DNA of 45,917 nt from a virus, in the IMG/VR virus record IMGVR_UViG_3300037761_000323. One strand, written 5' to 3'. Below, piece by piece: positions 1 to 45,917 of the stretch. A program made the translations under genes and the position numbers. Positions within the stretch are counted from its first letter, which is position 1. Every line of letters starts with the position of its first letter. The notes under the pieces are model-generated. The model saw nothing but the letters and a program-made list of their open reading frames with translations. It had not been told where the DNA came from and searched no databases.

Positions 1-127
1 TTCTGGCTGAGCGTGCGCCCGAGATCGCGGAGCGAGCCCTCGTAGAGCTCGTCCTCGTCCTCGAAGCCGAAGCCCGCGTTGATGCGGCCGCGCCCGACCT
101 GGCTCCCGCGGAGGTCCCGGATGTTCC
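1..127. repeat. Left copy of the 127-bp terminal direct repeat, identical to 45791-45917. Most simply a contig-end overlap of a circular or terminally redundant genome.
   Basis: Letter-by-letter comparison of the first and last 127 bases, ttctggctgagcgtgcgccc...gaggtcccggatgttcc. Confidence 0.95.
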
Positions 128-383
128 TCCCGAGGTCCTGGGAAAACTCGTCGAATTGCGCCCTGGCGCTCCTGCGCGCGCCCTCCTCGGCGTCGAAGCC
201 GCGGAGCCGCTCGGTCGCGATCCCCTCCGACTCGCGCCCGGTCTGCTCGTCGACGTCGGCCTGGCGCATGAAGCGAGCTGAGATCCCGCTCCTCTGCCGC
301 TGCGCCCGCTGCTCCTCGCTCTCCCGCCCCGTGGGCTGGCCGAGCCTCCGACCGAATCTCCCGTAACCGATGCCTGGCGGCAT
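1..383 (-). CDS. 5-prime part of a junction-spanning gene of 212 aa in total. It continues in frame at 45917->45535 when the duplicated 127 bp are counted once. Probable ejection/internal virion protein with a glycine-zipper C-terminus.
   Basis: ATG at 383-381 is preceded by GAGGAGGGGATC. My hand translation (MPPGIGYGRFGRRLGQPTGRESEEQRAQ...) runs off the left edge with no stop. It joins in frame onto the track ORF 45535..45738 (MGERQTG...). Total length 639 nt. Confidence 0.8.
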   Translation of the reverse strand, partial: MPPGIGYGRFGRRLGQPTGRESEEQRAQRQRSGISARFMRQADVDEQTGRESEGIATERLRGFDAEEGARRSARAQFDEFSQDLGRNIRDLRGSQVGRGRINAGFGFEDEDELYEGSLRDLGRTLSQ

Positions 384-8124: not shown

Positions 8125-8173
8125 GGGGATGCTTCTCCCAAGGTGTAAGGGCGTGAATGGCACGCCCGCCGGC

Positions 8174-30276: not shown

Positions 30277-30583
30277 GCTGTACCCCCTTGAGTGAGTGAT
30301 CCACCGCCAACGAAAAGCACCGGAGCAGAGGCCCCGGAGTCGTCTTTAGGATGAGCATGAGCGACGAGACGAGCCGCCCGTGCTCGATCGCCGTCTCGAT
30401 CGCCGACGCGACGAGGAGCGGGAGCTCCTGCTCCTTGCCGACGAAGGTTGCGAAACTCTTGGTCTCTTCGCCGCTCGTGTCGGCCACGATCGCGATGCCC
30501 ACGGTGCCCTCGAGGATCGCCGCGTGATCCCCGGACCGGACCGTGATCTTGACCGGCTCGCCTCCTGCGATCTCCTCCTTCAT
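30161..30583 (-). CDS. 140-aa hypothetical protein. Its last 38 codons overlap the next gene out of frame.
   Basis: ATG at 30583 overlaps the stop of the annealase gene (ATGA). GC3 collapses after 30276, so the tail is probably run-on. Confidence 0.5.
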   Translation of the reverse strand: MKEEIAGGEPVKITVRSGDHAAILEGTVGIAIVADTSGEETKSFATFVGKEQELPLLVASAIETAIEHGRLVSSLMLILKTTPGPLLRCFSLAVDHSLKGVQHGRAQEGSGPDAGGEAEPGTGGEGTPGDPQEAPPEDRG

Positions 30584-32277: not shown

Positions 32278-32282
32278 CAGAC

Positions 32283-32311
32283 TTGCCCCTTGTCGCGATA
32301 GGTGGTATGGT
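32283..32311 (+). promoter_or_regulatory. Candidate sigma70-type promoter for the plus-strand DUF932 block.
   Basis: TTGCCC (32283-32288), a 17-nt spacer, then TATGGT (32306-32311), about 37 nt upstream of the ATG at 32348 in the divergent gap. This is a pattern match only. Confidence 0.3.
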
Positions 32312-32329
32312 AGGGGTGCAGGCACATAT

Positions 32330-32343
32330 CCCCTCGGAAGGAG
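32330..32343 (+). promoter_or_regulatory. Copy of the leader word CCCCTCGGAAGGAG.
   Basis: Ends 4 nt upstream of the ATG at 32348. Confidence 0.5.
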
Positions 32344-32347
32344 AACG

Positions 32348-33484
32348 ATGATGGCACACGAACTGGATTACAGCGACTCCATGGGCCGGCACGCGATGTT
32401 TTCGGTCAAGGAGACACCGTGGCATCGCCTCGGGATCGTCCTCGAAGATTCGCCCGACGTCGACTCGGCTCTACGCCTCGGCGGCCTGGATTTCGAGGTC
32501 GAGAAGGTCCCCCACTTCATCCGGCTCGACGGGCTCGATGGGGCCGTCGAGTACAAGCGGAGCGGCGACGCCTTCTCGATCGTGCGTCGCGATCGCCAGG
32601 AGGTGATCGGCACGGTCGGGAGCACCTACGAGCCGCTCCAGCAAGAGACGGCCTTCGGAGTACTCCGGCCCGTGGTCGATCAAGGCCTCGCCACGATCGA
32701 GACGGCCGGCGTGCTGCGCGGAGGGAAGCAGGTTTGGATGCTCGCCCGCTTCAACCTGGGCGAGATCGTCCGGCGCGCGATCGAGCAGGGCGGCGACCCG
32801 ACGCTGATCGAGCTGATCGCGAACGAGGTCGTTCCTTACGGCCTCTTCACCAACGACCACTCCGGCGCGGCCAAGGCCCGGATGAAGGAAACGGCCGTCC
32901 GCGTGGTCTGCGCCAATACGTTCGGCATGGCGATGGGCAAGGCCGAAGAGGGCACCTCGGTCGAGATCACGCACGGGAAAAACATCGAGGAGCTATACCG
33001 GACGGCGGCAAACATGATGCTCTCCGGCGTGGCGCAGCGGTACGCGCAGCTCGCTCGGGCCCGTGCGCTTCTGGAGACGACGGACCTCCGCGGGATGGAG
33101 GAGCGGCCCTTCCGCCGGCTCGTGCTCGATCCCACGGTTCCGATCCGTCACCTGGAGCGGAAGGTCCAGCGGCGCGAGGACACCGTGCGGACCCGGATCG
33201 CGCTCGACGCGGCCCACGGCAAGCGCGCCGAGATCCGGAGGCTATGGGACGAGGGCGACGGCCACACGGGCAGCGGGAGCGCGTGGGAGGCGTTCCAGGG
33301 CCTCGTCCAGTGGACCGACCACTCCTCGCAGTCGCTCAACGGCCAGGAGGAGCGCGACGAGCGCCGGGCCACGAGCCTCTACGACGGCACGCTCGGCAAC
33401 ATCAAGTCGAAGGTCGCGCGGGGCGTGTTCGCCTACGCGGCCGCGGAGAACGAGGACGAGCGGCTGGCGCTGCTCGCTGACTGA
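32348..33484 (+). CDS. DUF932-family protein (phage/plasmid-associated), 378 aa.
   Basis: ETPWHRLG...GGKQVWMLA...FTNDHSGAAKARMKETAVRVVCANT matches the DUF932/TIGR03299 pattern. Confidence 0.8.
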   Translation: MMAHELDYSDSMGRHAMFSVKETPWHRLGIVLEDSPDVDSALRLGGLDFEVEKVPHFIRLDGLDGAVEYKRSGDAFSIVRRDRQEVIGTVGSTYEPLQQETAFGVLRPVVDQGLATIETAGVLRGGKQVWMLARFNLGEIVRRAIEQGGDPTLIELIANEVVPYGLFTNDHSGAAKARMKETAVRVVCANTFGMAMGKAEEGTSVEITHGKNIEELYRTAANMMLSGVAQRYAQLARARALLETTDLRGMEERPFRRLVLDPTVPIRHLERKVQRREDTVRTRIALDAAHGKRAEIRRLWDEGDGHTGSGSAWEAFQGLVQWTDHSSQSLNGQEERDERRATSLYDGTLGNIKSKVARGVFAYAAAENEDERLALLAD

Positions 33485-34998: not shown

Positions 34999-35532
34999 TC
35001 ACGGGGCCCCCGGGTACGTCCGGGGGCCCGACTCCTCCTCCCCCCGGGGCGGCGCTCCCGGGGGGTTCCCTTCGCCCTTCACGCGCCTCGAGCCGCCAGT
35101 CGCCGAGCGGAGCTTGGCGAGCACAGTCCCAAAGAGCGGGATCCTCCGCCCGCCGAGTGCGACCACATGGTCCTCGATCGACTCGAGCTCGTCGGCCACG
35201 AGCATCAGCGCGATCATCGAGCCCCCGATCCCGATACCCATGACGTCGGGGAGGCCGACGACGGGCAGGATCGACTCGAGCGTCCTGAGCAGGAGGAGGA
35301 TCATGAGCGTGCCCGCCTTGGAGTGGATCCCCGCCCTCGATCGTGCCCGGTCGTACCTGTTGGCGTAGAGCGCCACGCGCCGGCCCCAATACCAGTCGAT
35401 CGCGTTCGCCACGATGAGCACGAGGAAGAGGAGCCCAAAGACGTCCGGATACACCCAGCCGAGAAAGCCGCCGAGCGCGCCCGCGCCGACGCGGAGCGAG
35501 TCGACATCCTGGTCGAGACGGTAGAACATCAT
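34999..35532 (-). CDS. Holin (phage_holin_4_1 / toxin-secretion-lysis holin family-like), 177 aa.
   Basis: Three hydrophobic segments, IDWYWG...SRAGIHSKAGTL..., and ADELESIEDHVVALGGRRIP resembling the E.SI.EN...G..iP family motif. The start ATGATG overlaps the stop of the giant gene. Confidence 0.65.
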   Translation of the reverse strand: MMFYRLDQDVDSLRVGAGALGGFLGWVYPDVFGLLFLVLIVANAIDWYWGRRVALYANRYDRARSRAGIHSKAGTLMILLLLRTLESILPVVGLPDVMGIGIGGSMIALMLVADELESIEDHVVALGGRRIPLFGTVLAKLRSATGGSRRVKGEGNPPGAPPRGEEESGPRTYPGAP

Positions 35533-38500
35533 CCGCCTCCGCCCGGGAGCTCCCGGCCGAGCGCGCTCTGCGCGAGCTCGCGGGCCACGCGCCCGAGCGC
35601 GTCCACCGCGGCACGCTTGTCCTCCGGGCTCATTTCCTGGTCGCGGCGGATCGCTTCGACCTGAGCGCGGAGCTCCGCGAGATCGGCCGCGGCGGCCCTG
35701 AGCGTGGGCTCGCGCTGCCTGAGATCGGAGAAGGCCGGGTCGGCCAGCTCCGCCTCGTACGCCTCGACGTTGCCGCTGCGCTCGAGATAGCGGAGCGAGC
35801 TCGTCGCCACGCGCGCCTCCTCGTAGACCTGGTAGAACCGCGCGATCGACTCCGAATTGAAACCGGCCTGCGGGTCCAGAACGCCGCGGATGCCCGGGAC
35901 GTCCGTGGCCCGACCGCCGATCGGCGGAACGTCGCCAGACGTGAACGGAAGCCGGCCCTCGAGGAGCGGGTCCGCCAGCTCCGTCGCGACTCGGCCGAGT
36001 CCTCCAGTCCAGGCGAAGAGGAGGTTGTCGATCTCGCGCGGGCTGCCGATGAACTCGCTCGCAATCGGGATCCGATGCGTCCAGCGGGCGAGCATCTTCG
36101 CGACTTCCGACGTGTAGGGGCCCGCCTGGTACTGCACGCGGACCTCCTCCTCCGACTCGGGCACGATCGGGCGGCGGAGGAAGAAGCTGTAGTTGACCGC
36201 GTTCTCGATGAGCGGCTCGATCGCCGTAGGCGACGGGAGGAGACCCGAGACCTGGCCGCCGGCGAACTCCTCGAGGAAGGCTCGGAGCTCATGCCCCCCG
36301 CCGGGGCCCTTGATCGCGGAGTCGAGGATCCGCACGGGCAGGGTCCCGAAGATGAGCCCGAGCTCGAACGGCTTGGGGACAACCACCCAATCGTCGCCGA
36401 TGCGGAAGTGCCAGAAGAGGTCGCGCTCCCATTGGGCTTTCTCCCAATAGTCCGGGTCGTCCATGTTCGAGTAGTACTCGAGCAGCGACGGGACCGTGAT
36501 GATCGCGAAGGCTTTAGCGGTGAAGCCCACCGGGTCTTCGTGGGCCGCTCGAGCCATGCGCTCGTAGCCCTGGAGGCGGGCGTTCCAGAAGGCCGATAGG
36601 TTCCGGATCGCCGCTGTCTTCGCCCCATGGCGAGCGAAGTCGATCGAGACCTCCCTCGAGGCGAGCGCGGCCTGCTGGAGGGTCTCCTTCGCATACGGGC
36701 CCTTGGCCCCCTTGCCGAGCGCGAGCTGGACGCGGCCCTTGAACCCGTGGGCACCGCCGAAGGCGTGCTGCTGAGCTCGAGCGTTGAGAAACTCGCCCAT
36801 CCGGGTCGCGTCCTCCATGAGCGCGGACAGCGCTTGGAGCGCGTCGAAGGGAGTCTTGAGGACGTTCCTGATGCCGCCGCCCTCGACGAGGTTCGTGACT
36901 GCGTTCTGCATCGACTTCCGATCGAGCGACGTGAGTGCCGCACGGTAGCCTCCGGCGGAAAGCCACTGTTGATAGGCCTCGCCGCGGCGGAAGAGCTCGA
37001 AGATCCCCCGGGCCATGTCGACGCCCGGCACATAGCCGTACTCCGATTGGATGAAGGCCATGACCTGATCGCGGAGCGGGTTCCTGATGAGGAACTCCGG
37101 GGCGAGCGTAGCGCCGGCGCGGAGCGTGCGGGCCGGGATGCCGAGCCAGCGAGCCCAACCGTCGAGCTGCTCCGTGTTGAGCCCCTCGAGCGCGGCGTAG
37201 AGCTCCTTGTCGACCTCGTACCACGCGCGGCGGCCGTCCTGGAGGACGGAAATGACGTTGGGCTTGCCCATGTAGTCGCCGGGCCGGAAGAAGGCCAGGA
37301 CCTCCTCCGCCGGGTCGTCGAGCGTGATACCCGAGGTGAGGATCTCCCCAGGGGTCATGCCCGCCGTCGCCGCGTCGTAGCGCTCCTGGGCGAGGCGGCG
37401 CACCCGCGCGAGGAGCTCGTCGGATCCAGGTAGGATCTCTGCGAGCTGCTTCTCGATCTCGCCCAGCGTGAGCTCGACCCGCTTGATCGGGCTCCCGAGC
37501 TTCTCGAGCACGCTGCCGACGCCGGGCTTGTTGGCGAGCGACGCGAGCGCACGGCTGACCTGTTGTTTCTGCGCGATCTGCGTGTAGACCATCGCGTTCT
37601 TCGCGAGCGACTCGAGCGGGTCGATCACATCGAGCCCCGAGCCCTTGAGGCGCTTGATCGGGCTGAAAAGATGGCCGTACGTCTCCCCCAGGCCTCCGGC
37701 CGAGCCGCCCTCGCGCACCCGGTAGAAGGGCACGTACGACTGATTGAGCTCGAGGATCGCGTCGTAGCTGTCAGAGCTGATGACGCCCGAGTCGCGGAGG
37801 TACTTGAGCAGGCCCTCATTCCACTCCTGGACCCCCTTGAAGGCCTCGGTGAAGCGATCGCCATGCTGGGCGTCGAGCTGGCGGACCGAGGCGTCGACGT
37901 CCTCGTTCCGGAAGCCCGTTAGCTTGTCGCGCCCGTGGAGCTCCTGCGCCCGGCGGGCGACCATGTAGATCCGGAAGTCGTCGAGGTCCTCCACGACCGG
38001 AGCGATGATCTGCTTGAGCCCGGGCCCGATCTTGCGGAGCGTGCGGAAGTCGATCATGCCGTGCTCGAGGACGTGCATCCCCACGCCCACCGAGCCGCGT
38101 GACAGGCGGGCGAGTGAGTCGGCCTCGTCGGCGAAGTCCTCGACCCCCACACCCTCGCGGATCTTCTCGACGAGGCGGCGCACCGGCTCCATGTCGTCCA
38201 GGACGATCGTGCGCGCCCTCGACCACCGCTCCTCGATCGAGAGGGCCGGGGCGTCGCGATCGCCCACGCTGATCTTCGACCACACCCGGGAAAGCGCGTC
38301 GCTTTCGCGGTAGCGGGTCCAGTCGGCTCGAGCGTTCTGCCAGGACGCCCGGAGCTCGGGGAAGCCCTCGAGGCGCTCCTCGACGAAGCGGAGCGTGTTG
38401 GGGGCCTCCCTGGGGAGGACGTCGGGGTTGTCAAGGTAGCGCCGCCAGAACTCGGCCCATCCCTCGGCGAGCGATTCGTCGCTGATCCCCTTCGAGAGGT

Positions 38501-41500
38501 CGTCGAGCTCACCGCGGATGGGACCCGGAAGCGCCTTGAGGTCGGCGTTGCTCAGGTTCCCCCGCGGCGTCGAGCCGAAGAAGAGCTTGTGCATGGCGTG
38601 GCCCGCCTCGTGACCGAAGACGGGCACGTCGCTGATGTCCACCTGGCGAATGACTTGCTGGCGTGCCTTGAAGATCCCGAGCGTCTGGAGGAGGGGGTTC
38701 CTGGAGCGCGGGACGCGGCCGGTCGCAACCTTGAGGCCGAGCGCGGGCATCGCCTCATCCATCGCCTCGCCGAGCTTCCCGATGATCTCGACGGGCGAGA
38801 CGAGATCGGCCCGGATCGCCTGCGGGTTCTCGTAGAACTTGCCGGCCGAGGGGAGGCGCTCGCCGGCCTGCGCCGTGGGCGCGAGCGCCCTCGTTCCGAC
38901 CTCCTCCGGGTCGATGCGCCGCTCGAGGACGTTGAACGTCTCGGCCGCCCGGCGAGCTCCCGGCGACGGGCGATAGCGGCCCATGCCGACGAAGCCGAGC
39001 CCCGCCCCGACCGAGGCGCCCAGGAAAGCCCCGAACGCCGGGGAGAGCCCCACCTCGTCGGCCACGGCCGCGCCGCCCGTCGCTCCGATCGCCGCGCCAG
39101 CGAGCGGGCGCAGGAGGGCCGGGTGCAAGTAGCCGAGCCGCTGGCCTTCCGTCTTGATCTTGGCGATGAGCTCGGGGGTGAGGCGAACCCCGAGGTTCGT
39201 GACCGGGGCCTCCCACGTTTGGATCTCCCTGATCTCCGGGTAGAGCTCGATGCGCTGCTTCCAGGCCTCGAGCAGCTCGGGCGTCGCGAACAGACCTTGT
39301 TCGTCGATCGTCTTCTGGATCGCCGCGGGGCCCGAGGAACCCTCGACGACGTAGCGCCTCACCTGGTTCGCCATGAACCTGATGCGCGTCGCCAAGTCCT
39401 CGACGCCGGCGGGCTCGCGGGGCTCCATGCCGAGCAGCTCGACCGCTTCTTGTGTGTTGTTGACCAAGCGGTTGAGCGCCCTCGCCTGATTTTCGGGGAA
39501 GCCCTGCGTGGGGCGAGTCGTCGTCGCACTTTCCACCCACTCGTCCCCCACCAGCACGCCCACCTCCGATACCCGGAACGGCTCGATCTTGGCGTCCAGC
39601 TTGAGGCTGCGCAGATATTTCCTCACGACGCCCGTGTAGATCACGTCGTAGTACTGCTTCATCGCGTGGCCGCCGATCTGCACTCCGCGATCGAACTCGA
39701 GGCGGAGCAGATCGTCAGAGGAGCCTTTCCCGCCGACGCCACGAACGAAGGCGTCGACCTCATCGAGACGGTCGACGATCTGTGTGAGGTTCACCTCGTT
39801 GTATCCCGTCTCCACCTCGACCCGGTAGCCGATCTCCTCAACCGGAAGGCCGAGGATCCGGAGCTGATTCGTGAAGGCGAGGTTGGCCGCCTCCTGGTCA
39901 ATGAGGACGGTGGACCGCCAGAGGACGTTGGCGTCCCCCTCGTCCACATGCCCAGCGGGAAGGTGGTAGATGTTGAGCTCGAGCGTCCCCCCCTCCGTGG
40001 GCTCCCGGATGGCGAAGTACCGATCTCCGTTCGGCGCCTCGTAGTCTGCCCGCATTTCGTAGCCGTGGCCTCCTTGCCGGTAGGTCTGCTCCCACCGAAA
40101 GCCGCCCGTCGCCTGGCTGACCTCGATCACTCCCACGCCCTCGAAACGGCCGTGGACCCTATCCGCACGACCGAGGGCGAGGCGGTCCAGTTGCTCGGTT
40201 CCGCCGTTCCACTCGATTTTGGCCGGAGGACCTTCAACTGGCGCCTTGGCGAGGAGCTCCTCGGCGACGTCGCGGCCGAGCAAGTCGTTGAGCGAGCCGC
40301 GCCCGTCGACGGTCGCGATCTGCTCGGTCGCAACCTGGTTGCCCTTGTACGCCCTGAACGCCCGGGTGCGCTGGTTGAACTCGACGCGGGTGACTCCATA
40401 GCGGGCGAAGTTGTAGTTGTCGGCCGCCTGCTGCCCTGACACCCACGTCATTGCGTCCGCGCCTTCCTCAATGGCCTGCCAGAGCGCCCGCTTGACGTTC
40501 ACGAGCGTCCAGTCCTCCGTGGACTTGAAGGGCACGTCCGGAGCGAGGTTGTTGTTCCGGAGCGCCATTTCCTTCGCGGCCGTCCCGGCGTGACCGTGCG
40601 CCCGGATCCGGCCCTTCCCGTCGACGACGATCCATTGCCAGGTCCCGGGGTCCGGCTGGTTCTGCATCCCAGGCGGAAGCTCGCCCCTCGCGACGTAGGG
40701 AGCCGCCCGCTCCGCAACGCCCTCCCCGTAGAACCGCGTCGCGATCGCCATGGCGTCGCGCTCGAGCTCGACCGGCCGAACCACCCACCCGGCCGGGAGC
40801 CGGTCGGGCTTGTAGCCCTGCTCCCGGCCCTGTTGATGGAGGTCCGACTGGCTCTCCTCGACGTGGTAGACCTCGAGGCCGTCGAAGGTGTCTCGGATCT
40901 TAGCCCGCGAGAAGGCAAAGGGGTCGCGCTCAGTGTGGTGGCCCTTGAAGCCGTGCTCGCCCTCGTCGATCTGCACGATGATCTCGTGGTAGTCCCTGCC
41001 GCCCGGCTGCGTCCATTGCTCGTATCCCGCCGCCAAGTCGGCGCCACCCTCCTCCGCCTCCTCGATCTGCGCGCGCAGGCTCGATATGTCGTTGTGCAGC
41101 TCGTCGATCGTGTCCTGAGTCTCTCGGGCGTACGTCGCGAGGTCGCGCCAGCGCTGCACGGCATCCTCGAGGCCCGATCCGTCGTCGAGATCCCAGCGCT
41201 CGAAGAAGGTGTCGTCGCCGATGGTGTCCCTGACTTCATCGCGGATGAGCTCCATCGTGCGCGTGGAGCCTCTCTCGTTATCAGCGCCCTCCTCGGCGAG
41301 CTCCACGATCCTCGCGTTGAGCTCGTCACGCTGCTTGTCGCTGAGGAGCCCACCTTCCTCCCGGAGAGCGTCGTCGAGCTCCTCGACGTAGCGGCTCGCT
41401 CGGTCCTCGGCCTCGAGGCGCACGTCCGAGTGAGCATCCCCACCGCTCTCGTAGTCCTCGAGCCGGATCTCCATGTCGCTGAGCTCTTCCTGCCGGGTCT

Positions 41501-44249
41501 CGAGATCGCTTTGCAGATCGGCGAGGGCGTCTTGGTCGATGTCTTCGTCCCCCGCGCGGACAGACTCCGTGATCCGCGAACGGAGCCCCTTCTCTTCGAC
41601 GATCTTGGCGACCTCCTCCTTCGTGAACGTCTGGCGGAAGTCCTCGATCGACGGGTCCCATATCGCCTCCAGGATCTCCTTCTCCTGCTCCGTCGAGATC
41701 CGGCCCCTGTTCACGAGGTTCCGCGCGGCGATGTTCGGGCTGGTCCATTGGCCGCCCACGGACTGGTTCTGCATCTCCTCGGCCACCATGTCGACGAGGT
41801 GGCCGTTCTCCAGGAGCCCCGTCCCACGTAGGCGAGCTGCCGTCGCGGTCGTGCGCCGATAGTCGGTCGGCCTGGCAGGCGTGAGGCCCCGCGCAATCGA
41901 GTCGAGCTCGTCCTGCGTGACGCCCTTGTTCTTGAGGTAGGCGAGCCATCCCTCGCCACTCTGCCGGGTAGGCGCCTTGGGCTCCTCGAGCGCTCGAGTC
42001 GCCTGCGAGTAGTAGCGCCCCTGGAGCGGACCCCGCCCGGACGTGGCGAAGCCAGCCTGCCCGGGCGTGATGCGGTTGATCCTTCTCGCGAGGCCAGGGA
42101 GGCCGAGCGCGACCGCTGCCCCGACGAGCGCACCTTGCCCGGCCGTCACTTCCTCGGAGGGACCGCCCACCACAGCTCCGCCCGCGGCGCCGAGCGCCGC
42201 TCGACCGAATGGGCGAGCTGCCGCGGCCGCGGCGATCTCTGCAAACGAGCGGCGGGCCTCCTCGGTGCGTGCACGCACCGGCTCAGCCTCCGGCGCCTCG
42301 GCGCCCAGCTCGGCGGGTCGAGCTGCCTCCGCTGATGGGGCCTCCGCTCGCGCCGCTGGCGCCCCTGGAGCCTCGAGGACCTCGGGCGCCCTCCCGGCAG
42401 GCGTTTCCCGTGAAACGCCTCCTGGGGCCTCCTGGCGCGTCGCGAGGTCTCGAGCCCTGAGCTTGCCCGAGGCCTTCTTCGCGGTCGCGGCCGCTTCGTC
42501 CGCCGCGCGGAACGTCTCACCCACGCCGAACCGAGCGCTGAGCGTGAACTCGGTCCCCTCGATCGGCCGCTCGCCGAGCGCGTCCTGGACGGCCTTGCCG
42601 AGCCTCGCGCCCTCCCCCTTCGGCGCGGCGATCACGAACTCGTCGCCGCCGGCGCGGAAGAGCTGGCGCTGCTCGAGGCCGAGACGCTGCATGATCTTCC
42701 CAACCTCGCCGAGGATCTCGTCGCCCGCCTCGAGGCCGTGCGCGTCGTTGACGGCCTTGAAGTTGTCGAGGTCGACGATCACGAGCTCCGTGTTCGGGTC
42801 CGCGTCGAGGCGCGACTTCGCACGGCTGAAAGCGGTCTGATTGCGGAGGCCCGTCTTCGGGTCGGTGTATGCCTCTTCGAGCTCCTGACGCACGGACGGA
42901 TCGGCTGCCTCGGCGATGCGCCGCCGGATCGTGCGTTGTTCCGGTGGCGGTGCAGACGGTTGCACACCCTCGGGCGCGGCCGCGTCCGGCGCGCGCAGGC
43001 GGTCCTGCTCGGCGCCGAACGCCTCGAGCGCGGCCTGGCGGAGGTTCGGTGGGAGCTCCTCGATCGCCTGCACCATCGCGGGCGCCGGCGTGCCAGAGAA
43101 CTCGGCCGCGGCCGCCATGCGACCGAGCCGCTGCGCTCGAGGAACGGCGCGGCGGCGTCCGAGCGCCTCGAGCCCCTCGCCGAGCCCTTGGCCGAGCACC
43201 CATCCCGTGAGGACCTCGTACGTGCCGCGCGACACGGCATCGCTCGCGACGTCGGCGAGCTCCTCGTCGCCGGTGAGCATCGCCAGCGCACCCGACATCG
43301 ACTCCTCTGCGCCGGCCTGCGAGATCACGACGTCGATCGGAGCTCCGGTCAGGAAGTTTTGGGCCGCCCGCTGCGCGAGGCCCTGCGGCCGTGCGAGGAA
43401 GTTGAGGAACCGCCCGGTCCCGCCGGCGGCCTGCGCCGCTTGAGCTCCCCTCGAGGCCAGCGCACCGGGCATCATGAAGAGCGCACCCTCGCCGGCGAAC
43501 TGCGTCCCGATGTTGGCGGCCAGCCCGAGTCCCGTCTCCGGCTCCGGGTACTCCTCGCGGGCGAGCTCCCTCGAGGCGCGCACGTTCGCCGCGCGCCGGT
43601 CGGTCATGTCGAGCTGCTCGCCCTCGGGATCTGCGATGCGCTCCGCGAAGGGCCGGCGGGCCGCTCGTTCCCCCCTGCCACGCGGCGGGAGCGTCTCGGC
43701 GAGGCCGAGCGCCGTGCGGTGGCCCACCTCCGACGCACCTCGACCGACCTGGCCCGGGATCTCGGGCACGCCCTCCATGAGGCCGAGCATGGCGCGCTCG
43801 GTCGGGCTCAGGAAGTCCTCCCGCATCGAGGGACGCGGCGCCCCGTCCTGCGCGACCTCCTCCTCGTCCTTGCCGAAGATGGCCTCGTAGCCGAGCTGTA
43901 CGGTGCGCCCGACGCCCTTCACGCCTCGAGCGACGCGGCCGAGTACTCCGGGCGGCTGCTCAGGACCGGCAGGCGGCTCGGGCTGGAGGCCGGCGGCCCC
44001 AGGTCCGGGACCACGCGCTCGAGCCGGCCGCCCGGTCGTGTCGGGCGGGGGGGCGGGCCCACGCGCTCGAGCCGGTGGTGCCTCCGTTCCAGCCGGAGGC
44101 GGAGTCGTTCGGCGAACGGGCGGAACCGTCTCAGGCGGAGCCTCGATCGTCTCCGCGGCGGGCTCAGTCGTTCCGCGTGCAGCTCGGACGCGGGCGAGTG
44201 TGCGCTGCCGCCTGATCCGCGCGAGGAGGTCCTCTTGCGTCGTGCCCAC
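35529..44249 (-). CDS. Giant 2906-aa multi-domain (polyvalent-type) virion/ejection protein with GGDEF and HExxH modules.
   Basis: Single uninterrupted ORF. GTG at 44249 directly follows the upstream TAA. It occupies the last ejection-protein position of a P22/T7-like layout. Order of parts: Pro/Ala-rich N-terminus, GGDEF domain, two glycine-zipper hydrophobic patches, HEAGH motif, then a long helical C-terminal region. Confidence 0.85.
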   Translation of the reverse strand: MGTTQEDLLARIRRQRTLARVRAARGTTEPAAETIEAPPETVPPVRRTTPPPAGTEAPPARARGPAPPPDTTGRPARARGPGPGAAGLQPEPPAGPEQPPGVLGRVARGVKGVGRTVQLGYEAIFGKDEEEVAQDGAPRPSMREDFLSPTERAMLGLMEGVPEIPGQVGRGASEVGHRTALGLAETLPPRGRGERAARRPFAERIADPEGEQLDMTDRRAANVRASRELAREEYPEPETGLGLAANIGTQFAGEGALFMMPGALASRGAQAAQAAGGTGRFLNFLARPQGLAQRAAQNFLTGAPIDVVISQAGAEESMSGALAMLTGDEELADVASDAVSRGTYEVLTGWVLGQGLGEGLEALGRRRAVPRAQRLGRMAAAAEFSGTPAPAMVQAIEELPPNLRQAALEAFGAEQDRLRAPDAAAPEGVQPSAPPPEQRTIRRRIAEAADPSVRQELEEAYTDPKTGLRNQTAFSRAKSRLDADPNTELVIVDLDNFKAVNDAHGLEAGDEILGEVGKIMQRLGLEQRQLFRAGGDEFVIAAPKGEGARLGKAVQDALGERPIEGTEFTLSARFGVGETFRAADEAAATAKKASGKLRARDLATRQEAPGGVSRETPAGRAPEVLEAPGAPAARAEAPSAEAARPAELGAEAPEAEPVRARTEEARRSFAEIAAAAAARPFGRAALGAAGGAVVGGPSEEVTAGQGALVGAAVALGLPGLARRINRITPGQAGFATSGRGPLQGRYYSQATRALEEPKAPTRQSGEGWLAYLKNKGVTQDELDSIARGLTPARPTDYRRTTATAARLRGTGLLENGHLVDMVAEEMQNQSVGGQWTSPNIAARNLVNRGRISTEQEKEILEAIWDPSIEDFRQTFTKEEVAKIVEEKGLRSRITESVRAGDEDIDQDALADLQSDLETRQEELSDMEIRLEDYESGGDAHSDVRLEAEDRASRYVEELDDALREEGGLLSDKQRDELNARIVELAEEGADNERGSTRTMELIRDEVRDTIGDDTFFERWDLDDGSGLEDAVQRWRDLATYARETQDTIDELHNDISSLRAQIEEAEEGGADLAAGYEQWTQPGGRDYHEIIVQIDEGEHGFKGHHTERDPFAFSRAKIRDTFDGLEVYHVEESQSDLHQQGREQGYKPDRLPAGWVVRPVELERDAMAIATRFYGEGVAERAAPYVARGELPPGMQNQPDPGTWQWIVVDGKGRIRAHGHAGTAAKEMALRNNNLAPDVPFKSTEDWTLVNVKRALWQAIEEGADAMTWVSGQQAADNYNFARYGVTRVEFNQRTRAFRAYKGNQVATEQIATVDGRGSLNDLLGRDVAEELLAKAPVEGPPAKIEWNGGTEQLDRLALGRADRVHGRFEGVGVIEVSQATGGFRWEQTYRQGGHGYEMRADYEAPNGDRYFAIREPTEGGTLELNIYHLPAGHVDEGDANVLWRSTVLIDQEAANLAFTNQLRILGLPVEEIGYRVEVETGYNEVNLTQIVDRLDEVDAFVRGVGGKGSSDDLLRLEFDRGVQIGGHAMKQYYDVIYTGVVRKYLRSLKLDAKIEPFRVSEVGVLVGDEWVESATTTRPTQGFPENQARALNRLVNNTQEAVELLGMEPREPAGVEDLATRIRFMANQVRRYVVEGSSGPAAIQKTIDEQGLFATPELLEAWKQRIELYPEIREIQTWEAPVTNLGVRLTPELIAKIKTEGQRLGYLHPALLRPLAGAAIGATGGAAVADEVGLSPAFGAFLGASVGAGLGFVGMGRYRPSPGARRAAETFNVLERRIDPEEVGTRALAPTAQAGERLPSAGKFYENPQAIRADLVSPVEIIGKLGEAMDEAMPALGLKVATGRVPRSRNPLLQTLGIFKARQQVIRQVDISDVPVFGHEAGHAMHKLFFGSTPRGNLSNADLKALPGPIRGELDDLSKGISDESLAEGWAEFWRRYLDNPDVLPREAPNTLRFVEERLEGFPELRASWQNARADWTRYRESDALSRVWSKISVGDRDAPALSIEERWSRARTIVLDDMEPVRRLVEKIREGVGVEDFADEADSLARLSRGSVGVGMHVLEHGMIDFRTLRKIGPGLKQIIAPVVEDLDDFRIYMVARRAQELHGRDKLTGFRNEDVDASVRQLDAQHGDRFTEAFKGVQEWNEGLLKYLRDSGVISSDSYDAILELNQSYVPFYRVREGGSAGGLGETYGHLFSPIKRLKGSGLDVIDPLESLAKNAMVYTQIAQKQQVSRALASLANKPGVGSVLEKLGSPIKRVELTLGEIEKQLAEILPGSDELLARVRRLAQERYDAATAGMTPGEILTSGITLDDPAEEVLAFFRPGDYMGKPNVISVLQDGRRAWYEVDKELYAALEGLNTEQLDGWARWLGIPARTLRAGATLAPEFLIRNPLRDQVMAFIQSEYGYVPGVDMARGIFELFRRGEAYQQWLSAGGYRAALTSLDRKSMQNAVTNLVEGGGIRNVLKTPFDALQALSALMEDATRMGEFLNARAQQHAFGGAHGFKGRVQLALGKGAKGPYAKETLQQAALASREVSIDFARHGAKTAAIRNLSAFWNARLQGYERMARAAHEDPVGFTAKAFAIITVPSLLEYYSNMDDPDYWEKAQWERDLFWHFRIGDDWVVVPKPFELGLIFGTLPVRILDSAIKGPGGGHELRAFLEEFAGGQVSGLLPSPTAIEPLIENAVNYSFFLRRPIVPESEEEVRVQYQAGPYTSEVAKMLARWTHRIPIASEFIGSPREIDNLLFAWTGGLGRVATELADPLLEGRLPFTSGDVPPIGGRATDVPGIRGVLDPQAGFNSESIARFYQVYEEARVATSSLRYLERSGNVEAYEAELADPAFSDLRQREPTLRAAAADLAELRAQVEAIRRDQEMSPEDKRAAVDALGRVARELAQSALGRELPGGGG
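38598..38612 (-). other. HExxH zincin motif (HEAGH), residues 1880-1884 of the giant protein.
   Basis: The context is VPVFGHEAGHAMHKLFFG. Confidence 0.6.
42462..42866 (-). other. GGDEF (diguanylate cyclase-type) domain, residues about 462-596 of the giant protein.
   Basis: TDPKTGLRNQTAF...VIVDLDNFKAVNDAHGLEAGDEIL...LFRAGGDEFVIAAP...LSARFGVG...ADEAAATAKKASGK. The GGDEF codons are at 42636-42650. Confidence 0.85.
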
Positions 44250-45524
44250 TTACCGGGGCCCCGCGTTCTCGATGAGCTCGGCGATCTCCTCGTCCGTCGC
44301 GTCCGGGTTGGCCTCGATGATCTTGGCGATCTCCTCGTCCGTAGGCTCCCGGGACGCGCCAGCGGCCGACGAGGTGGGGCGTGGCCCGCTGCCGACGCCC
44401 GTGAGCCTGAGCGCCCGCATTTCCTGTTGGAGCTCGTCCCCGCTCTCGAAGCCGAAGAGCAGGAGTGTGTTCCGGATCTGATCCTCGAGGTAGCCGGCCG
44501 GAAGACGACCACGCTCAAAGGCGTTCATTTCCCGGACCTGGTTCCGGATCCGGTCGATCGCCGTAGATGCCGCGCGTGCCAGCGTGCGGCGCGTGACCTC
44601 GCCCGTGATCCGTCCATCCCCACTCGTCGCTCCAGTGCGGGAGGCCTCCGCCATCGCCTCGCGCCATGCGATCGCGGCGACCTCTCCCTCGGGCGTGTTC
44701 GGGAAGTCGCGGCCCATGACCGTGATGTTGTCCGCGTCCTCGTCGGGGAAGAGCACGCTCCCGGGCACCTGGCCGACGAGCTCGGCGAGCACCTCGGGCG
44801 ACGTCTCTTCGCCGCGCTGGAGGGCCCCCAGGGCCGTCTCGAGGCGGGCGCGCTCCTGCCGGTCCCGCTCCGTCTCCCGCTCCTCTCCGCGGACCTCCCT
44901 CGCCTCGCCGCGCTCTTCGCCCCGGACGGCCGTGGCCTCGGCTCGGGCCGCCGGCGTCGCCGCGCGGTCGATGTAGAGATCCTCCGTCACCTGCTCGAAG
45001 CCGGGTCGGGGGCGCTGGCGCTGGACGGCGTTGCGCCGCCTCGACTCCTGCACGAGGTCCTGGTCCGTGATCGCGCGCTCGGTGAAGCCGAGGCCCTCCA
45101 CCCACGCACCAGGGAGCGCGAGGATCTGCGGCTCCGGCGGAGCGCCCTGCATCTGGATCTGAGTGAGCGCGTCTTGGGCGGGAGCTCCGGACGGGGCCAT
45201 ACCCATCCCCGCGCCCCGGAAGATCGAGGGCGCCTCGTGCTCGGTGCGCTCCGAGGCCATCCCGAACTCCGCGCCGGCGAAGATGTCCTCGTCCGGCGGG
45301 ACGGGCTCGGTCGGCCCGCGGCCGCGGCGCACGCCCGCCTCGTGGAGCTCGATCTCCCGGTCCTCCGCCTCCCGGGCACGCTCCTCCGCGAGGAGCCGCC
45401 GCTCCTCTTCCTCGCGCCGGACCCCCGTGAAGCCCGTCGCCCCCTGCGTCGCGATGTGGCTGAGCGCATCGAACACCCCGGGGACCGGGGTGAAACCAGG
45501 ATCGCGCGGGCTGTAGCGTGCCAT
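44250..45524 (-). CDS. 424-aa ejection/internal virion-type protein.
   Basis: ATG at 45524 preceded by GAGGAGACAACC. Charged coiled-coil-like middle region. Lies between the junction gene and the giant gene. Confidence 0.6.
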   Translation of the reverse strand: MARYSPRDPGFTPVPGVFDALSHIATQGATGFTGVRREEEERRLLAEERAREAEDREIELHEAGVRRGRGPTEPVPPDEDIFAGAEFGMASERTEHEAPSIFRGAGMGMAPSGAPAQDALTQIQMQGAPPEPQILALPGAWVEGLGFTERAITDQDLVQESRRRNAVQRQRPRPGFEQVTEDLYIDRAATPAARAEATAVRGEERGEAREVRGEERETERDRQERARLETALGALQRGEETSPEVLAELVGQVPGSVLFPDEDADNITVMGRDFPNTPEGEVAAIAWREAMAEASRTGATSGDGRITGEVTRRTLARAASTAIDRIRNQVREMNAFERGRLPAGYLEDQIRNTLLLFGFESGDELQQEMRALRLTGVGSGPRPTSSAAGASREPTDEEIAKIIEANPDATDEEIAELIENAGPR

Positions 45525-45534
45525 GGTTGTCTCC

Positions 45535-45917
45535 TCAGCCGGTCGCCAGCGCTGCACCCGCGCCTACGGGCCCGCCGGCGATGAAGCCACCCACGCCACG
45601 CGCCAGCGTGCCGAGTGCGCCGAAGAGGCCGCTCCGGCTCTGTGCGCGCTGGCGGCGGCGCTGCTCCTCCTCGAGGAAGCTCGCGTCGCGCTCGGAGCCG
45701 AGGATCTCGAGGCCGCGCCCGGTCTGACGCTCACCCATCCCGCCGAGCTCGCCCGCCGCCTGGAGGTTGAGCCCCTGCGCCTGGAGCGCGTTCTGGCTGA
45801 GCGTGCGCCCGAGATCGCGGAGCGAGCCCTCGTAGAGCTCGTCCTCGTCCTCGAAGCCGAAGCCCGCGTTGATGCGGCCGCGCCCGACCTGGCTCCCGCG
45901 GAGGTCCCGGATGTTCC
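45535..45917 (-). CDS. 3-prime part of the junction-spanning 212-aa gene.
   Basis: Same frame as the 383->1 segment. Ends ...SGLFGALGTLARGVGGFIAGGPVGAGAALATG (GxxxG-rich, membrane-insertion-like). TGA at 45535-45537. Confidence 0.8.
   Translation of the reverse strand, partial: NIRDLRGSQVGRGRINAGFGFEDEDELYEGSLRDLGRTLSQNALQAQGLNLQAAGELGGMGERQTGRGLEILGSERDASFLEEEQRRRQRAQSRSGLFGALGTLARGVGGFIAGGPVGAGAALATG
45791..45917. repeat. Right copy of the 127-bp terminal direct repeat.
   Basis: Identical to bases 1-127. Confidence 0.95.

What the first reader, a model, noticed from the sequence alone, without database searches (positions are those of the whole stretch)
35529..44249. A 2906-aa single-ORF polyvalent protein takes up 19 percent of the genome and is coupled to the holin
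- **Size and coupling:** one gene of 8.7 kb lies at the end of the structural operon. Its GTG start abuts the upstream TAA, and its TGA lies inside the holin ATGATG start.
- **Composition:** it strings together the following parts.
  - A Pro/Ala-rich N-terminus.
  - A GGDEF domain.
  - Two glycine-zipper hydrophobic patches (AALGAAGGAVVGGP...GALVGAAVALGLPGL and LAGAAIGATGGAAVADEVGLSPAFGAFLGASVGAGLGFVGMG).
  - A conserved-looking block, YHVEESQSDLHQQGREQGYKP.
  - An HEAGH zincin motif.
  - About 1000 aa of helical C-terminal region.
- **Interpretation:** this is the architecture described for polyvalent proteins of phages and conjugative elements, which fuse effectors delivered with the DNA. 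The two upstream genes (212 aa with a glycine-zipper tail, and 424 aa) fit the smaller ejection proteins.
- **What is missing:** I see no lytic transglycosylase motif, although such a motif is the usual enzymatic cargo at this position.
Basis: partly seen in the sequence, partly recalled or inferred. Interest (0 to 1): 0.75.

Follow-up and report, generated by a model that had tools for sequence, protein, structure and literature searches.

The report
Giant phage polyvalent protein with GGDEF
A single real 2906-residue phage gene fuses an apparently active c-di-GMP synthase and a widespread unannotated module onto the conserved "LPD38" tail end that relatives use for giant virion-packaged proteins, so it is a new member of a known class, not a new kind of system.

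Summary
ORF 35529..44249 (-) is a genuine 2906-aa gene, 19.0% of a 45,790-bp circular phage contig. It has uniform coding signal, a TAA|GTG junction upstream and an ATGA overlap with a Pfam-valid holin.

It is a phage-type polyvalent protein as defined by Iyer et al. 2017. Its parts are:
- an invariant HExxH...EGxAE zincin block and an LPD38 chassis (aa ~1856-2906), shared with 40 giants that carry different N-terminal cargo;
- a GGDEF domain (aa 455-597) with intact catalytic motifs and no RxxD I-site;
- two Gly-zipper hairpins;

That middle module belongs to a very large unannotated family: 12,601 cluster representatives, no Pfam or NCBIfam model, and no significant match to solved structures.

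In a syntenic sister phage a ddrB-ParB domain sits in the slot where GGDEF sits here. LPD38 giants of phi24B and JC1 were found in virions by mass spectrometry, so packaging and ejection is the best-supported inference. It is not shown for this phage.

GGDEF in polyvalent proteins is already documented. The verdict is a new member of a known kind, of moderate interest. The host and the morphotype remain unknown.

The parts
35529..44249 (-). Whole gene: 2906-aa phage-type polyvalent protein (GTG start, TGA stop)
   Evidence: ORF list and translation. Uniform GC3 along its length. Collinear homologue P0001 from an independent sample.
43950..44249 (-). aa 1-100: Pro/Ala-rich low-complexity N-terminus
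   Evidence: 23 Pro and 17 Ala in the first 100 residues. The start is conserved: it aligns from residue 1 of P0001.
42930..43949 (-). aa 101-440: lineage-specific N-domain of unknown function
   Evidence: Shared only with P0001 (49% identity) and P0002 (47%). Iterated HMM searches find it in no other LPD38 giant.
42459..42887 (-). aa 455-597: GGDEF diguanylate-cyclase domain with intact catalytic motifs and no RxxD I-site
   Evidence: Pfam PF00990 62 bits and TIGR00254 52.6 bits, both above cutoff. PDB sequence matches to diguanylate cyclases, 4wxo at 5e-11. Motif alignment. 68% identity to P0001.
42090..42200 (-). aa 684-720: Gly-zipper hydrophobic hairpin 1 (AALGAAGGAVVGGP...GALVGAAVALGLPGLA)
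   Evidence: Kyte-Doolittle 19-residue peak of 1.44. Weak Pfam Gly-zipper_YMGG hit, below cutoff. 70% identity to P0001.
39570..42020 (-). aa ~744-1560: 'QSD-x-HQ' module, homologous to a widespread stand-alone phage protein of about 600 aa. It carries an acidic coiled-coil insertion (aa ~790-1050) and a second insertion (aa 1342-1522). The core is aa 1101-1341 (40227-40949).
   Evidence: The family HMM maps collinearly in four pieces. 166 word-indexed hits and 12,601 cluster representatives. 15 invariant positions. No Pfam, NCBIfam or PDB match.
38979..39104 (-). aa 1716-1757: Gly-zipper hydrophobic hairpin 2 (LAGAAIGATGGAAVADEVGLSPAFGAFLGASVGAGLGFVGMG)
   Evidence: Kyte-Doolittle peak of 1.59. 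It meets the strict uncharged Gly-zipper criterion, against 0.055 segments expected per shuffled query. 60% identity to P0001.
38265..38684 (-). aa 1856-1995: zincin-like metallopeptidase block (HEAGH at 1880-1884; EGWAE at 1929-1933)
   Evidence: H1880, E1881, H1884, E1929, G1930, A1932 and E1933 are invariant in 19/19 homologues. Both motifs lie in predicted helices that follow two short strands. This matches the fold description in Iyer et al. 2017.
35532..38264 (-). aa 1996-2906: conserved, mostly helical C-terminal chassis. It includes Pfam LPD38 at aa 2598-2762 (35964-36458).
   Evidence: LPD38 scores 116 bits. The chassis is shared by all 40 homologues, with D2394, G2542, F2554 and P2737 invariant. 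AlphaFold2 model: pLDDT 71.9, 59% helix. No solved-structure match.
34999..35532 (-). Downstream 177-aa holin, ATGA-overlapped with the giant gene's stop
   Evidence: Pfam Phage_holin_4_1 32.2 bits, cutoff 22.2. Sequence junction. 43% identity to the gene at the same position in L002.
44250..45524 (-). Upstream 424-aa protein, a candidate co-packaged virion or ejection protein
   Evidence: GC3 0.89. Conserved at the same position in L001 (46% identity) and L002 (32%). No family hit in Pfam, PHROGs or NCBIfam.
45535..45790 (-). C-terminal part of the 212-aa upstream protein, which wraps the circular junction. It ends in a Gly-zipper tail.
   Evidence: Circularised ORF. 69% identity to the L001 neighbour. 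A Gly-zipper segment at aa 193-212.
1..383 (-). N-terminal part of the same 212-aa protein (ATG at 383)
   Evidence: Circularised ORF after removal of the 127-bp terminal repeat.

Best explanation
**What it is**
The gene encodes one real polypeptide of the phage-type polyvalent-protein class. Its last ~1050 residues are a zincin-like metallopeptidase block followed by a mostly helical LPD38-containing module. This is a conserved chassis that always sits at the extreme C-terminus of such giants. I infer that it mediates incorporation into the capsid and exit through the tail at infection.

**Cargo**
Cargo modules are exchanged by recombination upstream of the chassis. In this phage they are:
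- a lineage-specific N-domain;
- a GGDEF diguanylate cyclase that keeps every catalytic motif and lacks the product-inhibition I-site;
- a large 'QSD-x-HQ' module of unknown but enzyme-like function, which elsewhere is a stand-alone gene in the terminase/portal region.

**Proposed course of events**
1. The gene is expressed late, as the last structural gene, and is translationally coupled to the holin.
2. A few copies are packaged, together with the 212-aa and 424-aa proteins encoded just upstream.
3. On infection they are ejected ahead of or with the DNA.
4. The Gly-zipper hairpins insert into the cytoplasmic membrane.
5. The zincin block cuts the chain at the low-complexity linkers.
6. The freed or membrane-tethered GGDEF domain makes c-di-GMP from host GTP within the first moments of infection. 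This pushes the cell toward a high-c-di-GMP state, for example loss of motility or pili and an altered surface, with possible exclusion of further phages.

**Shown and inferred**
- Shown: the gene is real, its domain identities, the conservation of catalytic residues, the chassis/cargo modularity and the late-gene context.
- Inferred: packaging, ejection, cleavage, membrane insertion, enzymatic activity and the physiological effect.
For: **The gene is real**
- Uniform GC3 along the ORF.
- P0001, from another sample, is collinear with it.

**Class membership**
- LPD38 scores 116 bits.
- Forty homologues share aa ~1800-2900 but carry ART-PolyVal, ddrB-ParB, RadC, Zeta toxin, Sno/helicase, methyltransferase, SLT or GGDEF cargo.
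- The chassis ends a median of 8 residues from the C-terminus in 15 further giants.

**Cassette swap**
- P0002 lies in a syntenic 44.8-kb contig. It has the same N-domain and chassis, but ddrB-ParB at aa 486-625 where ours has GGDEF at aa 455-597.

**Zincin block**
- HExxH plus EGxAE are invariant in 19/19 homologues.
- Iyer et al. 2017 describe this HExxH plus distal-Glu arrangement and propose autoprocessing.

**GGDEF**
- It scores above the Pfam and TIGR cutoffs.
- The TDPKTGLRN, DLDNFKAVND, GD and RAGGDEF motifs align with solved diguanylate cyclases.
- It is 68% identical to P0001, as conserved as the chassis at 71-73%.
- It recurs in P0007, P0020 and P0027.

**Virion location by homology**
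- phi24B gp47, which carries LPD38, was abundant in virion mass spectrometry yet invisible in cryo-EM.
- JC1 gp69 and the two proteins encoded upstream of it were found in CsCl-purified virions, and the lysis genes follow them.
- The DC1 homologue of gp69 matches our aa 2526-2885.
- Phage polyvalent genes typically lie among late virion genes.

**Membrane hairpins**
- Gly-zipper-like uncharged segments occur in 28/40 homologues, against 2.9 expected from shuffles.
- T7 gp16 likewise has two putative transmembrane regions.
Against: - There is no direct evidence for this phage: no virion proteomics, and host and morphotype are unknown.
- The match to the experimentally studied DC1/JC1 protein covers only aa 2526-2885 at 24% identity.
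- The upstream 212-aa and 424-aa proteins have no detectable homology to known virion or ejection proteins.
- The Gly-zipper segments are only borderline hydrophobic (Kyte-Doolittle 1.44-1.59). Unlike most homologues, ours are not N-proximal.
- The chassis model has no significant structural neighbour (best E 0.28), so its role in packaging or ejection rests on context only.
- GGDEF domains act as dimers, and nothing here shows dimerisation.
- N4 vRNAP shows that a zincin-bearing giant can be packaged uncleaved.
- The ATGA overlap with the holin is not conserved in L001 or L002, so the coupling may be mere gene packing.
Confidence: 0.62

Rival explanations
1. The protein is mainly a structural ejectosome component, the functional analogue of T7 gp16 or P22 gp16/gp20. 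Together with the 212-aa and 424-aa proteins it builds the trans-envelope DNA conduit. The enzymatic domains are secondary passengers or are inactive.
For: - A small-medium-large gene triad sits at the end of the structural operon, and two hydrophobic segments lie in the largest protein. This matches the size-and-synteny pattern used to recognise T7-type triads.
- The phi24B authors propose exactly this role for gp47.
- Gly-zipper segments are enriched in the family, 28/40 against 2.9 expected.
Against: - No sequence or structural similarity to T7 or P22 ejection proteins was found in PDB sequence or fold searches.
- The catalytic residues of GGDEF and the zincin block are fully conserved, which argues against mere passengers.
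- Wholesale cargo swapping among homologues is typical of effectors rather than conduit parts.
- This rival is largely compatible with the best explanation and does not exclude it.
Confidence: 0.2
2. The protein is not packaged. It acts in the producing cell late in infection, for example by raising c-di-GMP or processing phage or host proteins before lysis. Its place next to the holin reflects timing only.
For: - It is co-transcribed late and coupled to the holin.
- Stand-alone GGDEF genes exist in many cultured phages outside virion modules.
- There are no proteomic data for this phage.
Against: - LPD38 giants were detected in purified virions of two unrelated podophages.
- The chassis is conserved at the extreme C-terminus whatever the cargo.
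- A 19%-of-genome investment at the end of the structural operon matches the virion-gene context described for the class.
Confidence: 0.1
3. The GGDEF domain is not a diguanylate cyclase in this context. It could make another nucleotide product, or act as a binding or regulatory domain.
For: - GGDEF-family enzymes can have other products, as Iyer et al. note.
- P0013 carries a degenerate copy (RDGDAF) at the same place, so activity is not always retained.
- The polyvalent-protein GGDEFs share features among themselves, such as the GERPI-EGT block.
Against: - The GGDEF signature is complete, including the metal-binding Asp and the Lys, Asn and Asp positions aligned with solved cyclases.
- The best family matches are all diguanylate cyclases.
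Confidence: 0.12
4. The ORF is an artefact (assembly chimera or read-through of a frameshift), or it is a tape measure or tail fibre.
For: - At 69% GC, long spurious ORFs are common.
- Gly-rich hydrophobic patches also occur in tape measure proteins (from my own knowledge).
Against: - GC3 is uniform at 0.82-0.96 in frame 1.
- Collinear homologues come from two other samples.
- There are no tape-measure or fibre family hits.
- The gene is followed by the holin, not by distal tail genes.
- Homologues occur in cultured phages; the ones whose morphotype was checked here (phi24B, JC1) are podoviruses, and the rest I believe to be podoviruses from my own knowledge.
Confidence: 0.03

Closest known systems
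Phage-type polyvalent proteins with a C-terminal LPD38 domain (Iyer et al. 2017, PMC5512222). Examples: E. coli Stx phage phi24B gp47 (2811 aa) and Burkholderia Bcep22-like 'DarB-like' giants (JC1 gp69, 4515 aa; DC1 gp67, 4650 aa).
   Same: - A giant single ORF among late virion genes, taking about 19-22% of the genome, preceded by two smaller virion-protein genes and followed by lysis genes.
- An LPD38-containing module at the extreme C-terminus.
- A zincin-type metallopeptidase.
- Unrelated enzymatic domains fused in one chain.
   Different: - The cargo differs. Ours has GGDEF plus the QSD module. The others have LPD1/LPD5/MuF-C (phi24B) or are annotated only as 'DarB-like' (JC1, DC1).
- Sequence similarity to the DC1 giant is limited to aa 2526-2885 at 24%.
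- The phage backbone is unrelated to any cultured phage: the portal has no match and the capsid protein is about 24% identical to actinophage capsids.
P0001 and P0002: giant proteins of two syntenic ~45-kb metagenomic phage contigs (JGI 3300042196 Ga0395785_0000381; NCBI JBINOL010000656.1)
   Same: - The gene order is the same: about 190 aa, about 400 aa, the giant, then a small membrane protein.
- The N-domain is shared (47-49% identity) and so is the chassis (62-73%).
- P0001 also has GGDEF, both Gly-zippers and the QSD module.
   Different: - P0002 carries ddrB-ParB instead of GGDEF and lacks the QSD module.
- The QSD core of P0001 is only 37% identical to ours, and P0001 lacks most of the aa 1342-1522 insertion.
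T7 gp14/gp15/gp16 and P22 gp7/gp20/gp16 ejection proteins
   Same: - A triad of small, medium and large genes in the tail-proximal part of the structural module.
- The largest protein has two hydrophobic regions and the smallest is membrane-active.
- Such triads are recognised by size and synteny rather than by sequence.
   Different: - No detectable sequence or fold similarity.
- Our large protein is more than twice the size of T7 gp16 and carries enzymatic cargo.
- It has no transglycosylase.
Phage P1 DarB and DdrB (head-packaged antirestriction proteins)
   Same: They are large proteins packaged in the capsid and injected to act at the start of infection. DdrB carries a zincin-like peptidase and is processed before packaging.
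   Different: - The methylase-helicase dyad that Iyer et al. list for DarB-type polyvalent proteins (section heading; that P1 DarB itself has it is from my own knowledge) is absent here.
- The PHROG 'DNA methyltransferase' hit (phrog_15406) falls on the chassis, not on a methylase domain.
- The 'DarB-like' labels on homologues reflect the shared chassis or other cargo.
Bacterial GGDEF diguanylate cyclases (for example PleD, WspR, YfiN/DgcN) and stand-alone phage GGDEF genes
   Same: The domain fold and the catalytic motifs are the same. The scores are above the family thresholds.
   Different: - There is no sensory or receiver domain and no RxxD I-site.
- The domain is embedded in a 2906-aa virion-module protein between low-complexity linkers and a Gly-zipper.
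- Cultured-phage GGDEF genes such as those of the Pseudomonas PaSz-4 group and Bordetella FP1 are annotated as GGDEF-domain genes and lie in phage groups that did not match the LPD38 chassis.

Membership tests
Phage-type polyvalent protein (Iyer et al. 2017) | One polypeptide combines two or more domains of disparate biochemical activity. | tested here: met
   A GGDEF nucleotidyl cyclase, a zincin-like metallopeptidase, LPD38 and the QSD module lie in one ORF with an uninterrupted coding signal.
Phage-type polyvalent protein (Iyer et al. 2017) | Presence of class-specific LPD domains. [quoted passage not shown] | tested here: met
   PF18857 LPD38: 116.1 bits against a cutoff of 27, at aa 2598-2762. 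The restriction to phage-type proteins is stated in the paper.
Phage-type polyvalent protein (Iyer et al. 2017) | A zincin-like metallopeptidase hub domain: HExxH in one helix and a Glu in a following helix. | tested here: met
   HEAGH (aa 1880-1884) and EGWAE (aa 1929-1933) are invariant in 19/19 homologues. Both lie in predicted helices that follow two strands. No Pfam peptidase model matched.
Phage-type polyvalent protein (Iyer et al. 2017) | The gene lies among late or virion genes. | tested here: met
   It is the last gene of the operon that runs terminase, portal, capsid and onward, directly before the holin.
Phage-type polyvalent protein (Iyer et al. 2017) | The protein is carried in the virion and delivered into the host with the DNA. 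| not testable with these tools
   This is known only for homologues: phi24B gp47 and JC1 gp69, by mass spectrometry.
GGDEF diguanylate cyclase (PF00990 / TIGR00254) | The profile score is above the curated threshold. | tested here: met
   PF00990 62 bits (cutoff 23.8). TIGR00254 52.6 bits (cutoff 37.4).
GGDEF diguanylate cyclase (PF00990 / TIGR00254) | An intact active site: the GG[DE]EF loop, the metal-binding Asp of D-x-D-x-F-K, and the guanine-contacting Asn and Asp. | tested here: met
   RAGGDEF, DLDNFKAVND and GD align with the same residues of solved cyclases (4wxo alignment; multiple alignment). The assignment of roles to these residues follows the PleD literature (Chan et al. 2004, cited) and my own knowledge.
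GGDEF diguanylate cyclase (PF00990 / TIGR00254) | An allosteric I-site (RxxD five residues before GGDEF). This is common but not defining. | tested here: not met
   The sequence before GGDEF is LEQRQLFRA, with no RxxD at the expected offset.
GGDEF diguanylate cyclase (PF00990 / TIGR00254) | Synthesis of c-di-GMP from GTP. | not testable with these tools
   This needs an enzyme assay.
T7/P22-type podovirus ejection proteins | Sequence or structural homology to gp14, gp15 or gp16 (or to gp7, gp20 or gp16 of P22). | tested here: not met
   The PDB sequence search returns only GGDEF hits. Foldseek finds nothing significant for the chassis. There are no PHROG or Pfam hits for the 212-aa and 424-aa proteins.
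T7/P22-type podovirus ejection proteins | A small-medium-large gene triad in the structural module, with membrane-active segments in the small and the large protein. | tested here: met
   The triad is 212 aa (Gly-zipper tail), 424 aa and 2906 aa (two Gly-zipper hairpins). The criterion is described.
P1 DarB-like antirestriction protein | An N6-adenine methyltransferase plus helicase dyad. | tested here: not met
   There are no methyltransferase or helicase Pfam hits. The phrog_15406 'DNA methyltransferase' match covers only chassis residues 2380-2623.
Tape measure protein or tail fibre | A family hit, or a position between the tail chaperones and the distal tail genes. | tested here: not met
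   No such hits were found. The gene is followed by the holin and then by oppositely oriented genes.

The most novel reading that the evidence does not exclude
The phage injects a pre-made, constitutively active diguanylate cyclase that lacks an I-site. Gly-zipper hairpins tether it to the membrane, and the zincin block may release it. Host c-di-GMP would then jump within seconds of adsorption, before any phage gene is expressed. This would be the first case of a virion-delivered second-messenger synthase. Separately, the QSD-x-HQ module (12,601 cluster representatives, invariant E-x-QSD-x-HQ and PDAPFK motifs, no known fold) could be a new enzyme family that phages carry in their heads.
Probability: 0.25. 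Interest if true: 0.75.

Novelty: new member of a known kind. Interest (0 to 1): 0.45.

Why it matters
**A testable idea about early infection**
Polyvalent proteins are thought to be the first phage molecules to act in a newly infected cell, yet almost none of their cargo has been tested. This protein is a clean natural example. It combines a catalytically intact GGDEF domain with no I-site and the chassis that, in other phages, is found in virions. A sister phage carries a different domain in the same slot. This makes the idea of a phage manipulating c-di-GMP from the moment of entry directly testable.

**Three general points for the class**
- The zincin plus LPD38 region behaves as a fixed C-terminal chassis.
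- Gly-zipper hydrophobic segments are a recurrent feature of the class. The founding paper's text never uses the word 'transmembrane'.
- A very large family, the QSD-x-HQ module, remains without any database model or structural neighbour. It occurs both as a stand-alone gene in the terminase/portal region and as a module of giants.

Tried and rejected
- **DNA search:** a megablast of the ORF against cultured phages found no match.
- **Middle region, first attempt:** a homologue search with aa 730-1720 scored nothing, apparently because low-complexity words saturated the candidate list. I repeated it successfully with a seven-sequence profile of the core.
- **Structure job size:** I reduced it to 25 sequences.
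- **Fold searches against solved structures:**
  - Chassis: best E 0.28, with only a weak echo of anthrax lethal factor.
  - QSD core: best E 0.2, weak GNAT-like fragments with TM below 0.16. I do not accept either as a fold assignment.
  - A profile search of the QSD family against PDB sequences gave zero hits at E<=1.
- **Family scans:** Pfam at E<=5 on five QSD segments gave nothing credible. NCBIfam found nothing for the QSD family or the 424-aa protein.
- **Host identification:** two scans of 185,579 species genomes, one with the chassis and one with the terminase, found no relative. The portal has no match in cultured phages.
- **Upstream proteins:** I tested the 212-aa and 424-aa proteins for homology to the virion proteins encoded upstream of the DC1 giant. 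BLAST found none.
- **N-domain:** I tested whether it is a second universal element. It is not; it occurs only in this lineage.
- **Readings considered and rejected:** tape measure, tail fibre, DarB proper and assembly chimera (see the rival explanations and the membership test).
Full report
**1. The observation**

The ORF listing gives a 2906-aa GTG-initiated ORF at 35529..44249 on the minus strand. The upstream gene ends in TAA, directly followed by the GTG. The TGA stop shares TG with the first ATG of an ATGATG start.

The window is about 69% GC, so long spurious ORFs abound. I therefore checked codon-position composition. Frame 1 has GC3 of 0.82-0.96 in every 100-codon block. The exceptions are aa 1-100 and 601-700, which are Pro/Ala low-complexity stretches.

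The window has a 127-bp terminal direct repeat, as expected for a circular assembly. The genome is therefore 45,790 bp and the ORF is 19.05% of it. One is a 212-aa protein ending in GLFGALGTLARGVGGFIAGGPVGAGAALATG, and the other is a 424-aa protein. The downstream 177-aa protein passes Pfam's Phage_holin_4_1 threshold (32.2 against 22.2 bits).

**2. Genome context**

On the minus strand the order is: large terminase (15477-17369), portal (9522-11807), major head protein (6748-8289), six small genes, a 1011-aa protein, a 61-aa protein, then the 212-aa, 424-aa and 2906-aa proteins and the holin. An M15-type endolysin, an Erf-like protein, ParB and a DUF932 protein lie beyond.

The phage is remote from cultured phages:
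- The ORF has no DNA match.
- The portal has no protein match.
- The capsid protein is about 24% identical to capsids of Arthrobacter and Microbacterium phages.
- Two scans of species-representative genomes found no relative.

Host and morphotype are therefore unknown.

**3. What the protein is**

Pfam finds GGDEF (aa 460-594, 62 bits) and LPD38 (aa 2598-2762, 116 bits). A search of 5.8 billion proteins returned 40 giants of 1.7-4.7 kaa, every one with LPD38.

BLAST mapping shows that all of them share our aa ~1800/2000/2330-2900, while their N-terminal parts are unrelated to ours and to each other. Their cargo includes:
- ART-PolyVal, ddrB-ParB, RadC and Zeta toxin;
- Sno-type and other helicases, and methyltransferases;
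- SLT, in one protein;
- GGDEF, in P0001, P0007, P0020 and P0027.

In 15 further giants found later, the chassis ends a median of 8 residues from the C-terminus.

This is the architecture that Iyer et al. 2017 named polyvalent proteins. That paper states three things relevant here:
- LPD38 occurs only in phage-type members.
- GGDEF and RelA/SpoT are present but 'not very widespread'.
- Zincin-like metallopeptidases are the hub domain and probably process the chain.

**4. The chassis**

In the 19 homologues with the long version, seven positions are invariant: H1880, E1881, H1884, E1929, G1930, A1932 and E1933. This is HExxH plus a distal glutamate helix. Downstream, D2394, G2542, F2554 and P2737 are invariant in all 41 sequences.

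AlphaFold2 on a 25-sequence alignment gives pLDDT 71.9 and pTM 0.64, with 59% helix and 4% strand. Both zincin motifs lie in helices preceded by two short strands. Foldseek against the PDB finds nothing significant (best E 0.28). A faint anthrax-lethal-factor echo is consistent with a zincin but is not evidence.

**5. The cargo**

*GGDEF.* The motifs TDPKTGLRN, DLDNFKAVND, GD and RAGGDEF align with solved diguanylate cyclases, and TIGR00254 also passes its cutoff. The stretch before GGDEF (LEQRQLFRA) has no RxxD I-site. The domain is 68% identical to that of P0001, as well kept as the chassis at 71-73%. P0013 carries a degenerate copy.

*The 'YHVEESQSD' block.* It belongs to a conserved domain shared with five chassis-bearing giants.
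- A seven-sequence profile found 166 proteins, mostly stand-alone and 400-640 aa, none with any Pfam domain.
- An exhaustive HMM search found 12,601 cluster representatives at E<=1e-3 and 6,250 at E<=1e-30. Most of the best hits are giants of 1,000-7,500 aa.
- A 102-sequence alignment has 15 invariant positions. The consensus reads FxSxHxDEPNxLAHxRxNDR ... EEIQSDWHQxGRKxGY ... VPDAPFKxTWHEL ... GGEGMKGFYD.
- The full-length family HMM maps collinearly onto our aa 744-784, 958-1098, 1101-1341 and 1523-1560. The whole middle third is thus one module with two insertions.
- It has no Pfam model, no NCBIfam model and no PDB sequence match.
- It has no significant fold match in the PDB. In the viral model library it matches only segments of other uncultured-phage giants.
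- Stand-alone members sit directly upstream of the large terminase (L003, L006) or between terminase and portal (L009).
- Only 15 of 134 QSD-bearing giants also have the LPD38 chassis, and the QSD module is always upstream of it.

*Gly-zippers.* The two patches have Kyte-Doolittle peaks of 1.44 and 1.59. They are 70% and 60% identical to those of P0001. Under a strict definition of an uncharged Gly-rich hydrophobic segment, 28 of 40 homologues have at least one, usually near the N-terminus, against 2.9 expected from shuffles.

**6. Module exchange**

Two syntenic ~45-kb contigs carry the closest relatives.
- P0001 is collinear with ours. Its QSD core is only 37% identical, however, and it largely lacks the aa 1342-1522 insertion.
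- P0002 shares the N-domain (47%) and the chassis (62%). It has ddrB-ParB at aa 486-625, the slot where ours has GGDEF, and it lacks the QSD module.
- The N-domain is restricted to these three proteins.

**7. Virion location**

This is an inference by homology.
- phi24B gp47 (2811 aa; LPD5, LPD1, LPD38, MuF-C) was abundant in virion proteomics but invisible by cryo-EM. Its authors propose that it is an encapsidated ejection protein.
- In JC1, gp69 (4515 aa) and the upstream gp67 (196 aa) and gp68 (510 aa) were detected in CsCl-purified virions. The lysis genes follow.
- The DC1 orthologue matches our aa 2526-2885 at 24% identity (E 1.5e-13). Its upstream neighbours show no BLAST similarity to ours.
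- The ejection-protein review describes T7-type triads as small, medium and large. The largest has two transmembrane regions, the triads are matched by size and synteny, and the transglycosylase is phage-specific. Our triad fits positionally only.

**8. Mechanism and verdict**

I think the most likely sequence is: late synthesis, packaging through the chassis, ejection with the two smaller proteins, membrane insertion of the Gly-zipper hairpins, zincin cleavage at the low-complexity linkers, and immediate c-di-GMP synthesis by a GGDEF domain without an I-site.
- Shown: the gene is real, its domain identities, the conservation of catalytic residues, the modularity and the context.
- Inferred: everything from packaging onward.

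The class, the LPD38 link to phage-type proteins and the occasional GGDEF cargo are all in the literature. This is therefore a new member of a known kind, from an uncharacterised phage lineage. The unexplained parts with real discovery potential are the QSD-x-HQ family and the function of the chassis.

Noticed in passing
window 39570-42020 (-), aa ~744-1560 of the giant ORF; also loci L003, L006, L008 and L009: The QSD-x-HQ module belongs to a very large family with no annotation. It has 12,601 cluster representatives at E<=1e-3, 15 invariant residues, no Pfam, NCBIfam or PDB match, and no significant fold neighbour. Stand-alone genes of about 600 aa lie next to the large terminase or the portal. 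This looks like an undescribed enzyme-like protein associated with the phage head.
   Followed up: partly
window 1-127 and 45791-45917: There is an exact 127-bp direct repeat at the two window ends. It is probably a k-mer overlap from a circular assembly (my inference). The true genome is 45,790 bp, and one gene (212 aa) spans the junction.
   Followed up: yes
window 580-3615 (-): The 1011-aa protein corresponds to two separate genes in the sister contig L001: a 401-aa gene that is 75% identical to the N-terminal 400 aa, and a 552-aa gene that is 51% identical to the C-terminal 270 aa. This is either a fusion or a split. The conserved N-terminus and variable C-terminus suggest a tail or receptor-binding protein. 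It has no family hit.
   Followed up: partly
homologues P0003, P0005, P0007, P0008, P0011, P0014 and P0020; our aa ~2560-2585 (window ~36495-36570): Many homologues have a strongly hydrophobic helix (Kyte-Doolittle 1.4-1.8), judged by its position relative to the C-terminus to lie just before the LPD38 Pfam region. The equivalent segment in our protein (FTAKAFAIITVPSLLEYYSN) is less hydrophobic. It could be a transmembrane or buried helix of the chassis.
   Followed up: no
window 28202-29776 (-), 30580-31674 (-), 32264-33484 (+): The genome encodes a ParB-like protein (524 aa), an Erf-like annealing protein and a DUF932 protein. I found no integrase among the genes examined. The sister contig L002 has a CI-like repressor. 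The element might be temperate, or a plasmid-prophage.
   Followed up: no
window 31744-32325 (-) and 34999-35532 (-): The M15-type endolysin is separated from the holin by a ~2.7-kb block of plus-strand genes. No spanin candidates lie next to the holin. This leaves open whether the host is Gram-negative.
   Followed up: no
aa 801-1050 of the giant ORF (window ~41100-41849): A very acidic, probably coiled-coil insertion lies inside the QSD module, with up to 19 Glu and 16 Asp per 100 aa. It is only 22% identical to P0001, with 33% gaps, making it one of the two most divergent stretches of the protein (the aa 1342-1522 insertion is lower still, at 15%).
   Followed up: no
phage collection hits: GGDEF-like genes are common in cultured phages. 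Examples are about 40 Pseudomonas phages of ~61 kb (PaSz-4 group), Bordetella FP1 and Bacillus phage G gp350. None of these phage groups matched the LPD38 chassis.
   Followed up: partly
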